In this document: positions 1 through 3,000 of the stretch, in pieces
Position numbering within the stretch: the first letter of the stretch is position 1
How the letters are laid out: each line of letters begins with the position of its first letter
IMG/VR virus record: IMGVR_UViG_2690316316_000010
Location: 1 to 8,484 of that record
Direction: 5' to 3' (one strand)
Length of the DNA stretch: 8,484 nucleotides
Source: a virus
Taxonomy: Duplodnaviria; Heunggongvirae; Uroviricota; Caudoviricetes
Program-made: the position numbers

Positions 1-3000
1 TCAGCTTTTCGCCAGAACGGTGACGGCCTTATCGAGTTTTTGCCATCCGCAATAGGTGATTGCCCTGAACGCTGTAGCGTCATTCTGGAAAAGGCTAACC
101 GCCCCTGATTCGGTTTTTATTACCGCCTCATCAGTTGGGGTTATAACCGTGGCTTCAACGTTAATAATCAGCTTTTGAGCGTCTATCAGCATCATGCGAT
201 CCGCCTGTTCGCTCACAATTACCGGTATTCTCAAAAGCTCTATCTGCCAGAACTCAGCATCAGTAAGCTGTAAGGCGTTTTCTACGGGCAAGATTAGCGA
301 CGACGTGGAAAGCGTGTTACCGTTCGCTATGTGCTTTTTGAAAAGCTCTATGAAGTTTTCGGCCTCATCAGCACCATTAAGCACGCCCTCAGGGGATACG
401 CCAGCCACCTCCTGGTCACTGGAAAGAAATTTTTTATCTATTTCTTTCACCGATTCCGATGTGATCAAGTCTCTGATCGCTGAATTTGTACCAGGGGTGC
501 TAAATTTGATTAGCTCGTTATTCAGCATCACAATAGCGCCAAGTTTGCACAGTTTTAGCGCACTTTCGTTTACTTCTCCCTCTTTGACAGGGATTTCTTC
601 GGCTTCTTTAAGCCATTTACTGCCCTTGCCTGATATTGACTGCAATTTTGCGCCAAAAGGAAGATTTAGCGCGCTGCTGATTAGCTTGCCTGGTACAGAC
701 TGCGAAAAAATATACTCGCCAAGCTCTCTTACTATCGGCTCTGCCACCAGCGACGGCATGTTATCCGTGTTCATTCCTGCTACTACGGATTTTTCAAGAA
801 ATAACGATACTGCCGGATCATTTCTTTTCGTCATCTCTATAGCGTCAGCATGGCTAAATTTACACGATGCCAGCACGCTGGCGGCGCGAACTGCTGACAC
901 GCCTTTCATGTTTTTACAGATCATCTTCTTCCTCCTCCTGGAAGCACGGGTTTAGTGTTTCGTGAAAATATGGCATCAGAACAGCGGCGGCCTGTAACCG
1001 TATTTCGGTCGACTGCTGCTTGTCGTTCATGATTTCCGTGAGTACATCAATAGGGTCTGTGATGTATTCGCTCATAGTTCGCTACCTCAGTGTTTTAAGT
1101 CTGTTGGTGGCTTAGGGATGGGGAACCGATTTGAGTAGACACTAGCGGCATTGAGTTTTTTAACCTCTTTTTTCCCAATGCTGCCGATCTTGCGGTGGGT
1201 GAACTGGGCCAGCTTAAACGCGGCATCTAAAGCCAGTTTTGGATCTGTGTCCATGTTGTCAATCAGTATCCTGCCCATTGCTTTGATGGGGTCGGGTAGG
1301 CCGTTATCCATCATCTCAATGGTGTTAATTGATGCCCGTTCCGGTGTAACTTTTTCGGTAACTTTCTTTGTAACTTTTTTCGGTTTTGTAACCTGAAAAG
1401 TTACATCAGGAGTTACAGCCTTAAGATACTTTTTCACCTCAGGATCGTTGGATAGCTGCCAGCCTTTGACCCTTGCGGTCTTTTCGCTGTATCCCGCATG
1501 TATAGCGGCTTCCGTGGGATTTGCGCCCCTTGATAACGCATCAGCAAACCGCTTTTTTTTGGTCGTTAATGCCATGCAAAAACCTCGTTTTGAGGGGGTG
1601 TAACTTTTCGTGTAACTTTTTTGAAAAGCAAAATTTTCTACGAATGAGACGGGGGGCGGTGTCCAGGGCGATCGACTTTCCGGCCGGAACACTCCCCCCC
1701 CCTGTCATTGCTCACCGAGTAACGAGATCAGGCCTTCAACTTCATCACTCAGCTTGTTTATTCGTCTCTCAAGCTCTGCGATCTTTTCCATTAATGGCGC
1801 TATCGTGTCTCTTGTTTCCTCGCCAATGGCTTTAATGATGCTTGCCTCGCGTTCTGTGATAGCCATTGTTATTCCTCACCTGTTGCAATGCCCAGGCGTT
1901 CGCGTAACAGCACGCGAGCAAGATGGCCTACTGTTGGCGTGGCGGCTCTGCCGTATATACCAGCTTCATTCATCCGGCGAATAACATCGAATTGAAGTTT
2001 TTTAAGCTCGTTTAGGATCTCGTGATCAATCATCACGGTAGCGCTTTGCTTTATCTGTTCCACTTTGTTTCCTCCTGATGCTTATCATCTAATAATCAGT
2101 ATTTTCGATAGATTATAATCAATCAACCATTTTTTAAGATATGCGAGATCGAAAAAAAGCCGGATTGCTCCGGCTATGTGTTCACTACTTCGGTTATTCT
2201 CCAGCGCTTTTAACGTTGATGGTTGTTACCTGTTCCGCTTCGGCAATCTCCCGTTCTGTCAGCGTGGCAAAGTTTGCCGCCGTCGTGGTCATGAATGCGC
2301 TTATCAGGTCGGGATGTGCTTTCGCGTATCCTTCCCCCGCGTGGCGGTCTATCGTTCTGATTGCCACCTTTAAGGTATGCTCAGTCATGTCTAACGCTTT
2401 ATATTTTGGCTCTGTTCTGTCTCTGCGAATTTTGATCATTTGTCGCCCCTGATTCATGTTTTCGGCTGGCATGTTTGTTAAGTGATTTTGATGTATGCGC
2501 ATTTATTTTCACCCCCTCGTTTAAAAAGTTTTTAGTTGTGCCTCCCCCCCTCTACCCATCTACCCGAATGCTCATCATGTCAGTAATGGCGCGGCTTTCA
2601 GCGGGTAGATAGCTTTTTGGGCTCCTCTACCTGCCGTCTACCCTGCTACCTGAAACTGATAAAATCAGGTAGAAGAGGTAGAGAGCTTTTATTAGCCTTC
2701 TACCTGGCCCTCTACCCACTTATCATGTTGAATAATATGCGTTTATTTCATTCAGGTAGATGGGGTAGAGGGCTTTTACAAAAAATTATAAAAACGCGTC
2801 GCAATCGTCTGTTGTAATTGCGTTGGTCTGCGTTACTCCCTTAACTTTTCGCGTAATATATTCATGCCCGTAAACTTTCGCCGCTGGCTTCATGGCCTTG
2901 CTGAACTCAGCCACGTTTAGCGGTTTGCTCCTGCCTGCGTATGCCATAAACGCCAGATAGACGCGGTAAAGGCTGTTCCTGGTCGTGTACTTCACTGAAT

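What the first reader, a model, noticed from the sequence alone, without database searches (positions are those of the whole stretch)
2548..2772. Iteron-rich putative origin immediately 3' of the primase gene
Many CTACC(C/T) and GGTAG units occur in both orientations as paired arrays around an AT-rich core, at the position where PICI and P4-type elements carry their replication origin. The number and symmetric arrangement of iterons is more elaborate than a simple direct-repeat set and defines the specificity of the cognate primase/helicase.
Basis: partly seen in the sequence, partly recalled or inferred. Interest (0 to 1): 0.45.

Follow-up and report, generated by a model that had tools for sequence, protein, structure and literature searches.

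The report
Replication origin of a phage satellite
The repeat-rich stretch just after the helicase ("primase") gene is very probably the replication origin of an E. coli phage-satellite island, of a type already described and tested in a sister island, so it is ordinary except for one embedded 21-base element that unrelated phage and plasmid origins also carry.

Summary
Observation confirmed. Twelve CTACC(C/T) hexamers, 7 forward and 5 reverse, lie in 2552-2768; only 4 occur in the other 8.2 kb. They start 14-17 nt after the stop codon of the 582-aa gene on the minus strand.

They form three head-to-head modules. Two of these enclose AT-rich spacers of 15 and 36 nt.

Fillol-Salom et al. 2018 described this layout for E. 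coli PICIs and showed that the EcCICFT073 pri-rep-ori segment drives plasmid maintenance. I located the EcCICFT073 origin, and it uses the same TCTACC iteron in the same arrangement.

Across islands the iteron changes with the initiator allele, not with the neighbouring genes: TGTTCACC, TGCGGGTTA or CCTCACTT replace it.

The protein is 40% identical to the helicase and origin-binding part of P4 alpha. It lacks alpha's primase half and has only a Toprim-like N-domain without the catalytic acidic residues.

In P4 this position holds crr, not ori.

One new point: a 21-nt G+C-rich block (2581-2601) inside the array also occurs in lambdoid O-gene origins and Rep_3 phage-plasmid origins. It aligns with the G+C-rich core of P1 and P7 oriR. 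Its role is unknown.

The parts
2548..2772 (.). Whole iteron array, the putative replication origin
   Evidence: 12 of the window's 16 CTACCY sites lie here. It is homologous to the EcCICFT073 origin.
2548..2620 (.). Module A: 2 forward iterons, a 37-nt spacer holding the conserved block, then 1 reverse iteron and GCTTTT
2621..2693 (.). Module B: 3 forward iterons, a 15-nt AT-rich spacer, then 2 reverse iterons and GCTTTT
2694..2781 (.). Module C: 2 forward iterons, a 36-nt AT-rich spacer, then 2 reverse iterons and GCTTTT
2551..2556 (+). iteron TCTACC
2559..2564 (+). iteron TCTACC
2604..2609 (-). iteron TCTACC
2626..2631 (+). iteron TCTACC
2637..2642 (+). iteron TCTACC
2645..2650 (+). degenerate iteron GCTACC, present in this island but not in the other seven aligned origins
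2668..2673 (-). iteron TCTACC
2677..2682 (-). iteron TCTACC
2699..2704 (+). iteron TCTACC
2711..2716 (+). iteron TCTACC
2755..2760 (-). iteron TCTACC
2764..2769 (-). iteron TCTACC
2652..2666 (.). AT-rich spacer of module B (73% AT)
2718..2753 (.). AT-rich spacer of module C (75% AT). It is among the least stable duplex in the intergenic region and is the likeliest melting site.
   Evidence: That it is the melting site is an inference from SaPI and PICI origins (PMC9371898, PMC6092414).
2581..2601 (.). Conserved non-iteron G+C-rich block CAGTAATGGCGCGGCTTTCAG. It is shared with lambdoid O-gene origins and Rep_3 phage-plasmid origins and aligns with the P1/P7 oriR core.
   Evidence: 19 of its 21 positions are invariant across 8 TCTACC-type origins, and two origins differ at one base each. 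More than 119 IMG/VR contigs carry it in several iteron contexts. BLAST and alignment to P1/P7 oriR.
2786..4534 (-). 582-aa helicase-initiator gene (annotated 'DNA primase family protein', the PICI Pri-Rep)
   Evidence: Pfam D5_N, DUF5906 and Pox_D5. 40% identity to P4 alpha aa 326-756. Matches 7OLA and 1KA8.
2813..3079 (-). C-terminal domain (aa 486-574) similar to the P4 alpha origin-binding domain; the presumed iteron reader
   Evidence: 1KA8 match, E 8.4e-6. It is 81-99% identical in all TCTACC-type islands and 31-33% in TGTTCACC-type islands.
3290..4084 (-). D5_N plus SF3 helicase core (aa 151-415)
4133..4534 (-). N-terminal Toprim-like domain (aa 1-134) without the canonical Glu and DxD. 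It is a mosaic module shared with DUF927-type and RepA-type initiators.
2512..2518 (-). Conserved Shine-Dalgarno sequence (GAGGGGG on the minus strand) of the next ORF, marking the downstream edge of the origin region
2194..2502 (-). Small conserved ORF (phrog_1231, function unknown) directly downstream. No terminator lies between it and the helicase gene.

Best explanation
The region 2548-2772 is the replication origin of a PICI-type phage satellite.

Shown here:
- It holds 12 copies of the hexamer TCTACC(Y), arranged as three tandem modules. Each module has 2-3 forward copies, a spacer, then 1-2 reverse copies, and ends in GGTAGAGRGCTTTT.
- The array lies 14-17 nt after the stop codon of the adjacent gene.
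- That gene encodes a P4-alpha/D5-type SF3 helicase with a C-terminal domain similar to the P4 origin-binding domain.
- The experimentally tested EcCICFT073 origin has the same iteron and the same layout.
- The iteron sequence changes whenever the initiator allele changes.

Inferred, by analogy with SaPI Rep proteins and P4 alpha:
- After helper-phage induction the protein's C-terminal winged-helix domains bind the iterons.
- Convergent iteron sets place protein on both sides of the AT-rich spacers, chiefly 2718-2753.
- The duplex melts there and the helicase loads itself as hexamers, giving bidirectional and later concatemer-forming replication.
- The protein shows no intact primase active site, so primers probably come from host DnaG.
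- The 21-nt G+C-rich block in module A (2581-2601) is a separate, portable origin element of unknown role.
For: - Clustering far beyond chance and convergent architecture.
- Position directly 3' of the helicase gene.
- Protein domains: D5_N, DUF5906 and Pox_D5. Residues 193-430 match SaPI5 PriRep 7OLA, and residues 486-574 match the P4 origin-binding domain 1KA8. There is 40% identity to P4 alpha 326-756.
- Orthology with the EcCICFT073 origin, which has the same iteron and the same order of elements.
- Experiment in the literature: the EcCICFT073 pri-rep-ori segment keeps a ts plasmid alive at 44 C, and the delta-rep and delta-ori versions do not or do so far less (PMC6092414).
- Iteron/initiator covariation. 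Eight islands with a C-terminal domain 81-99% identical keep TCTACC. Islands with a 31-33% identical C-domain have TGTTCACC. Islands with a DUF927 initiator have TGCGGGTTA. Islands with a RepA-type helicase have CCTCACTT. Serratia and Morganella relatives have TGTTCAC and TGTTCAT arrays right after the gene.
- Iterons do not follow the flanking genes. L004 and L010 encode the identical SSB WP_000126692.1 but carry different iterons.
- Only one iteron cluster exists in the window and in the EcCICFT073 island.
- No sigma-70-like promoter, no terminator and no Rfam family lies in the region.
- The SaPI mechanism is described in PMC9371898.
Against: - No experiment exists on this exact sequence.
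- In EcCICFT073, deleting the ori reduced colony numbers but did not abolish them.
- Covariation cannot separate the C-terminal domain from the helicase core. Both differ between the TCTACC and TGTTCACC groups.
- In the homologous P4 system the equivalent position is crr, a cis-acting site, while synthesis starts at a second cluster.
- The AT-rich spacers are only in the lowest ~1% of duplex stability for the window, not extreme.
- The source of primers is unresolved.
Confidence: 0.87

Rival explanations
1. The array is a crr-like cis-acting enhancer, as in P4. The initiator binds it, but DNA synthesis starts at another site.
For: The protein is homologous to P4 alpha. In P4 the iteron cluster immediately 3' of alpha is annotated crr, and the origin lies at 9086-9809. 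P4 crr also has a 'two forward, spacer, inverted' layout in tandem copies.
Against: No second TCTACC cluster exists in the window, in the DEC5A relative or in the whole EcCICFT073 island, whereas the same scan finds two clusters in P4. The cloned EcCICFT073 pri-rep-ori segment sufficed for plasmid maintenance.
Confidence: 0.06
2. The repeats are operators of a transcription factor that controls the downstream packaging genes, or they autoregulate the helicase operon. They are not an origin.
For: The array sits between two co-oriented genes with no terminator between them. A conserved Shine-Dalgarno sequence follows it. Iteron-binding initiators often also repress transcription (general knowledge of iteron plasmids such as P1, where PrepA lies inside the iterons).
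Against: No sigma-70-like promoter lies in the region. The repeat sequence follows the upstream initiator allele and not the downstream genes. TCTACC is kept with terS/capsid-type and with SSB/PerC-type downstream modules, while identical SSB or PerC genes sit next to different repeats.
Confidence: 0.04
3. The array is a packaging site (pac or cos) recognised by the island's small terminase.
For: This island encodes a TerS about 1 kb downstream.
Against: EcCICFT073 has the same array but no terS, and it packages through cos sites elsewhere. The repeats covary with the initiator, not with terS.
Confidence: 0.02

Closest known systems
EcCICFT073 (E. coli PICI) pri-rep-ori replicon, Fillol-Salom et al. 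2018 (PMC6092414)
   Same: The same gene order (DUF4222, then the 582-584-aa helicase, then ori). The same TCTACC iteron. The same order of iteron sets, conserved block and AT-rich spacer. The D5_N, helicase and C-terminal domains are 97-100% identical.
   Different: The intergenic DNA is about 79% identical. The middle of the array differs: the window has 2 reverse then 2 forward iterons, and CFT073 has 3 reverse then 1 forward. The N-terminal domain is only 69% identical. The downstream module differs: terS and a short capsid gene here, SSB, PerC, capsid and decoration genes there.
SaPI origins and Rep/PriRep helicases (PMC9371898)
   Same: There are 6-12 penta- or hexanucleotide iterons immediately downstream of rep, with at least two on each side of an AT-rich region pointing in opposite directions. 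The initiator is an SF3 helicase with a C-terminal winged-helix iteron reader. The helicase core matches 7OLA at E 3e-15.
   Different: Different iteron sequences. Three modules rather than two sets. No AEP primase partner is recognisable. The host is Gram-negative and transcription is unidirectional.
Satellite phage P4 alpha protein with ori and crr
   Same: The initiator is 40% identical over the helicase and origin-binding parts. Iterons occur in both orientations in tandem modules directly 3' of the gene. Sister PICI alleles (L007-L009) even use the P4 type-1 iteron TGTTCACC.
   Different: The iteron is TCTACC. There is a single cluster rather than ori plus crr. The protein lacks alpha residues 1-325, the primase half. 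In P4 this position is crr, not ori.
G+C-rich core of the P1/P7 plasmid origin oriR
   Same: The block 2581-2601 aligns with the stretch between the last RepA iteron and the first Dam heptamer of P1 and P7 oriR: GCCAGACGTGGCGCGGCCTGCAACG against GCCAGTAATGGCGCGGCTTTCAGCG. It aligns more closely with P1-like phage-plasmids.
   Different: The initiator is unrelated (Rep_3 RepA plus DnaA). There are no GATC heptamers or DnaA boxes here. The orientation relative to the AT-rich region is not the same in all contexts. The role of the P1 element is itself described as unclear (PMC5043065).

Membership tests
PICI replication origin (Gram-negative, EcCICFT073 type) | Located immediately 3' of the replication initiator (pri-rep) gene | tested here: met
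   The gene's stop codon is at 2786-2788. The last iteron ends at 2769, or 2772 with its extended arm.
PICI replication origin (Gram-negative, EcCICFT073 type) | Sets of short iterons in opposite orientation flanking an AT-rich region | tested here: met
   7 forward and 5 reverse hexamers. The spacers 2652-2666 and 2718-2753 are 73-75% AT.
PICI replication origin (Gram-negative, EcCICFT073 type) | Sequence homology to an experimentally validated member | tested here: met
   It aligns along its whole length with the EcCICFT073 intergenic origin and has identical iteron cores.
PICI replication origin (Gram-negative, EcCICFT073 type) | Island context: integrase, AlpA-type HTH, unidirectional operon, pri-rep, packaging or interference genes | tested here: met
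   Integrase at 7267-8484. An HTH-containing ORF ending at 5513. DUF4222, the helicase, terS and capsid, all on the minus strand. The attachment site of this particular island is not established.
PICI replication origin (Gram-negative, EcCICFT073 type) | Initiator-dependent replication of DNA carrying the region | not testable with these tools
   Shown only for EcCICFT073 in the literature.
P4-type replicon (alpha, ori, crr) | Alpha-like helicase with a C-terminal origin-binding domain | tested here: met
   40% identity to alpha 326-756. 1KA8 match at E 8.4e-6.
P4-type replicon (alpha, ori, crr) | Type-1 iteron TGTTCACC | tested here: not met
   The iteron here is TCTACC. TGTTCACC occurs in other PICI alleles and in P4.
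P4-type replicon (alpha, ori, crr) | Two separated iteron clusters (ori and crr) | tested here: not met
   One cluster in the window, L001 and L013. The same scan finds two in P4.
P4-type replicon (alpha, ori, crr) | N-terminal primase domain on the same polypeptide | tested here: not met
Origin G+C-rich core element (P1 oriR type) | G+C-rich stretch of about 25 bp next to the initiator iterons, homologous to the P1/P7 sequence | tested here: met
   Alignment A4; the invariant pattern is CAG...TGGCGCG.....CA..G.
Origin G+C-rich core element (P1 oriR type) | Lies between the iterons and the Dam-methylated heptamer/DnaA-box unwinding region | tested here: not met
   There are no GATC heptamers or DnaA box here. 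The block sits between iterons of module A.

The most novel reading that the evidence does not exclude
The 21-nt block CAGTAATGGCGCGGCTTTCAG (2581-2601) may be a portable, sequence-specific origin element, not just G+C-rich filler. It could be read by a host replication factor, for example as an entry or priming site for DnaG or the replisome.

The same block sits inside iteron arrays of at least six unrelated iteron families served by different initiators: PICI SF3 helicases, lambdoid O proteins, and Rep_3/RepB initiators of phage-plasmids. It also aligns with the essential G+C-rich core of P1 oriR, whose role is still called unclear.

Read on the minus strand it begins and ends with CTG. It resembles the phage G4 primer template (targeted test p about 0.002, but not significant genome-wide).

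This would fit a satellite helicase that has lost an active primase domain.
Probability: 0.3. Interest if true: 0.6.

Novelty: already known. Interest (0 to 1): 0.27.

Why it matters
As an origin call it mainly helps annotation. It marks the cis-acting replicon of a widespread E. coli satellite family. About 856 of 5426 complete genomes carry a megablast match to the 501-nt query spanning the ori region and its gene flanks. The TCTACC, TGTTCACC, TGCGGGTTA and CCTCACTT series gives a ready-made map of initiator/origin specificity groups, which should predict replication incompatibility and cross-activation between co-resident satellites.

The comparison also clarifies two points. The PICI 'ori' is the positional counterpart of P4 crr. 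The 'primase' label of these proteins is not supported by a recognisable active site.

The shared 21-nt core could matter more. If it is a specific recognition site, it would be a common handle through which unrelated phage, plasmid and satellite origins engage the host replication machinery. It would also give a function to the long-unexplained G+C-rich stretch of P1 oriR.

Tried and rejected
- Promoter and terminator scan of 2100-3000: no sigma-70-like promoter. The only relevant terminator is after the small ORF, at 2158-2175 on the minus strand.
- Rfam at E<=1: only a meaningless plant miRNA hit.
- ssDNA folding: z = -4.65, but this only reflects the inverted iterons.
- Hairpin reading of the block (GCCA-GTAA-TGGC, or GCGC...GCGC): the outer pairs are not kept in the window, L002, HK629 or L086, so I did not pursue a structural model (by inspection).
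- Sigma-54 promoter reading of TGGCGCG...: rejected by inspection because the GG-N10-GC spacing does not fit.
- G4 oric similarity: the genome-wide best hit is elsewhere, and 262 of 1000 shuffles score as well. Only the targeted test is suggestive (42 of 20000).
- DnaA box: L004, L005 and CFT073 have TTATCCACT next to an iteron, but the window and the O157-type origins (L002, L003) do not, so it is not a conserved feature.
- The genome-contig scan with the protein returned only 3 loci.
- Sequence-string literature search for the block found nothing relevant.
- Brendler et al. 1991 could not be read.
- No complete E. coli genome covers at least 80% of the window, so the island's own insertion site is not established.
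Full report
**1. The observation**

The window carries a run of minus-strand genes:
- integrase, 7267-8484;
- an ORF ending in an AlpA-like HTH;
- a DUF4222 protein, 4531-4830;
- a 582-aa 'primase family' protein, 2786-4534;
- a small conserved ORF, 2194-2502;
- two tiny ORFs;
- a small terminase, 1087-1692;
- a 307-aa capsid-family protein, 1-924.

- CTACCY occurs 16 times in the window, and 12 of these lie in 2552-2768. Shuffles give a mean of 3.75 and a maximum of 10.
- TCTACC occurs 12 times, 11 of them here.
- From the outside density, 0.27 copies are expected in 225 nt.
- Seven copies are forward and five are reverse.

The coordinates and description are accurate.

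**2. Anatomy**

The copies form three tandem modules of 73-88 nt.
- Module A (2548-2620): two forward copies, a 37-nt spacer, one reverse copy.
- Module B (2621-2693): three forward copies, a 15-nt spacer at 73% AT, two reverse copies.
- Module C (2694-2781): two forward copies, a 36-nt spacer at 75% AT, two reverse copies.

Each module begins with CC(C/T)CTCTACC and ends with GGTAGA(G/T)(A/G)GCTTTT. The outermost arms are perfect 10-11-nt inverted repeats, such as GCCCTCTACCC / GGGTAGAGGGC.

Start-to-start spacing inside a set is 8-12 nt.

Nearest-neighbour stability is lowest at 2718-2754, 2650-2694 and 2770-2795. It is highest at 2580-2604.

There is no sigma-70-like promoter and no terminator between the helicase gene and the next ORF. 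A terminator follows that ORF at 2158-2175. No Rfam family matches.

**3. The adjacent protein**

- Pfam finds D5_N, DUF5906 (SF3 helicase) and Pox_D5.
- Against solved structures, residues 193-430 match the SaPI5 PriRep helicase 7OLA (E 3e-15). Residues 486-574 match the crystal structure of the P4 alpha origin-binding domain 1KA8 (E 8e-6).
- Residues 141-571 are 40% identical to P4 alpha 326-756. Nothing matches alpha 1-325, which holds the primase.
- The NCBI name comes from TIGR01613, a model of the C-terminal (helicase) part of P4-family primases.
- The first 150 residues have no Pfam or NCBIfam match.
- The positions of the Toprim Glu and DxD are occupied by Ala25 and by AGELD (read from the sequence). 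An active primase is therefore not evident.
- This N-domain is a mobile module. It is 52-71% identical on proteins whose remainder is a DUF927 protein or a RepA-family helicase.

**4. Comparative test**

Megablast of 2400-2900 finds matches in 856 of 5426 complete E. coli genomes.

In seven other loci chosen without reference to the repeats, the TCTACC cores sit at the same aligned positions while the spacers diverge. Mean column identity is 71%. The loci are two O157 islands, AST216, an O26 island, E166, Shigella flexneri and EcCICFT073.

I located EcCICFT073 in NC_004431 (helicase 1382241-1383995). Its 288-nt intergenic origin has 11 TCTACC copies in the same order.

In these islands the D5_N, helicase and C-terminal domains are 81-100% identical to the window protein. 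The N-domain ranges from 43% to 95%.

Islands with other initiators have a different repeat at the same place, immediately 3' of the gene and in convergent sets around AT-rich DNA:
- TGTTCACC in L007-L009, where the C-domain is 31-33% identical and the helicase 54%;
- TGCGGGTTA in L010, with a DUF927 initiator;
- CCTCACTT in L011, with a RepA-type helicase.

Serratia and Morganella homologues (52-53% identity) have TGTTCAC and TGTTCAT arrays directly after the gene.

The repeats do not follow the neighbouring genes.
- L004 (TCTACC) and L010 (TGCGGGTTA) encode the identical SSB WP_000126692.1.
- L005 and L011 share the identical PerC WP_000233304.1.
- TCTACC is kept with two quite different downstream modules.

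This is the pattern expected for initiator-specific iterons. It argues against an operator of the downstream genes and against a packaging site.

**5. What is known**

Fillol-Salom et al. 2018 (PMC6092414) make four relevant statements:
- In Gram-negative PICIs the region immediately 3' of the initiator gene has the organisation of Gram-positive PICI origins.
- Their Fig. [quoted passage not shown]
- The EcCICFT073 rep-ori segment supports growth of a ts plasmid at 44 C, and the rep and ori mutants are defective.
- Four Pri-Rep allelic variants exist in E. coli.

Qiao et al. 2022 (PMC9371898) summarise the mechanism for SaPI Reps. These are SF3 self-loading helicases whose C-terminal winged-helix domain recognises penta- or hexanucleotide iterons. 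[quoted passage not shown] Two hexamers probably load on either side.

The window's array fits this description point by point, and it belongs to the same iteron family as the tested EcCICFT073 origin. The finding is therefore correct but already known.

**6. Relation to P4**

The P4 record annotates crr (4291-4590) immediately 3' of alpha. It has type-1 repeats in both orientations inside two 120-bp direct repeats. The origin proper is at 9086-9809.

A cluster scan finds two iteron clusters in P4. It finds one in the window, in the DEC5A relative and in the EcCICFT073 island.

So the PICI origin is the positional counterpart of crr. For the TGTTCACC alleles it is apparently also the sequence counterpart. 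In PICIs it acts as the only cluster.

**7. The conserved block**

In the aligned TCTACC-type origins the most conserved non-iteron stretch is CAGTAATGGCGCGGCTTTCAG (2581-2601). Six of the eight origins are identical there; L006 and the Shigella flexneri origin differ at one base each.

Among 89 distinct 300-nt contexts:
- 42 are TCTACC origins;
- 37 carry arrays of CCGCACATGA instead;
- the others carry further repeat families.

Gene context and BLAST place the block in several origin types.
- Inside replication protein O genes of lambdoid phages, in the middle of the iteron array. Examples are Stx2a phages, JEP4, CUS-3, mEpX2, mEp506 and HK106, and HK629 with TTGTCCAAC iterons. Phage lambda itself lacks the block.
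- Between the iterons and the GATC heptamers and DnaA box of a RepB-type phage-plasmid (pE2855-2).
- Next to 22-bp iterons of a Rep_3-like replicon (L086).
- Next to ACCCGTGC and GTAAC repeats (L096, L050).

The homologous stretch of P1 and P7 oriR lies between RepA iteron 14 and Dam site 1. It reads GCCAGACGTGGCGCGGCCTGCAACG. This is the 'G+C-rich stretch' of the P1 origin core (my recollection of Brendler et al. 1991, which I could not read). Jha et al. 2016 (PMC5043065) state that the role of such G+C-rich flanks 'has remained unclear'.

In O genes the block is in one reading frame (SNGA) with identical codons. It is also present in non-coding origins, so the constraint is on the DNA.

It is absent from the other PICI alleles and from P4 crr.

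Its orientation relative to the nearest AT-rich tract is not constant.

On the minus strand it begins and ends with CTG, the DnaG start triplet (my own knowledge). It resembles the annotated G4 primer template. That similarity is not significant genome-wide and reaches only about p = 0.002 in a targeted test.

I regard a specific host-factor or priming role as an open possibility, not a result.

**8. Verdict**

- It is already known as a kind, and the same iteron family has been tested in EcCICFT073.
- The added value here is threefold: the explicit iteron/initiator covariation series, the crr correspondence with P4, and the missing primase active site.
- Separately, the shared 21-nt origin core is unexplained and is the only part that might repay experiments.

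Noticed in passing
window 4133-4534 (minus strand; aa 1-134 of the 582-aa protein): The N-terminal domain has no family match. It is modelled confidently as a Toprim-like fold but lacks the catalytic Glu and DxD. The same domain (52-71% identical) heads proteins whose remainder is a DUF927 protein or a RepA-type helicase, so it is an exchangeable module common to all E. coli PICI initiator types. Its function is unknown; it might recruit host primase or partner with DUF4222.
   Followed up: partly
window 2581-2601; also L039 6242-6262, L141 ~901-925, L138 3003-3028, L144 ~400-425: A 21-nt G+C-rich block is shared by PICI, lambdoid O-gene and Rep_3 phage-plasmid origins and aligns with the P1/P7 oriR core, despite their unrelated iterons and initiators.
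   Followed up: partly
window 2440-2502: The small ORF downstream of the origin (phrog_1231) carries about 63 extra nt at its 5' end compared with most related islands, with a partial duplication of the start region (ATTTTGAT at 2429 and 2485). RefSeq starts the gene at the inner ATG (window 2439) in the DEC5A and O157 relatives. The conserved Shine-Dalgarno sequence and ATG are at 2502-2518.
   Followed up: partly
window 1-924 and 914-1075 (minus strand): The capsid-family protein is short (307 aa) and matches only the C-terminal part of HK97-type capsid profiles. A 53-aa ORF between terS and the capsid gene matches an internal piece of a TerS profile (phrog_641). In the DEC5A relative the island ends right after this capsid gene. 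These look like remnant or decoy morphogenesis genes rather than a full capsid module.
   Followed up: no
window 5513-8484 compared with L001 and L002: The window is a mosaic. No complete E. coli genome covers at least 80% of it. The right-hand third (regulatory region and integrase) follows O157-type islands at about 92% identity, and the left two thirds match O55:H7 DEC5A at 99%. The island's own attachment site is not visible in the window.
   Followed up: partly
L007-L009 (E. coli), L015 (Serratia), L016 (Morganella): PICI-type islands whose helicase is closer to P4 alpha (49% identity) use the P4 type-1 iteron TGTTCACC or near variants. Their first spacer resembles the spacer inside the P4 crr repeats by inspection (not aligned), which suggests direct homology between these PICI origins and P4 crr.
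   Followed up: partly
L139 (CP088587.1, 32.6-kb E. coli 'plasmid' pD17EC0246-3): A complete TCTACC-type PICI replicon module (DUF4222, helicase, ori, SSB, PerC, capsid) sits on a record deposited as a 32.6-kb non-mobilizable circular plasmid. It may be an excised or episomal satellite, or an assembly artefact.
   Followed up: no
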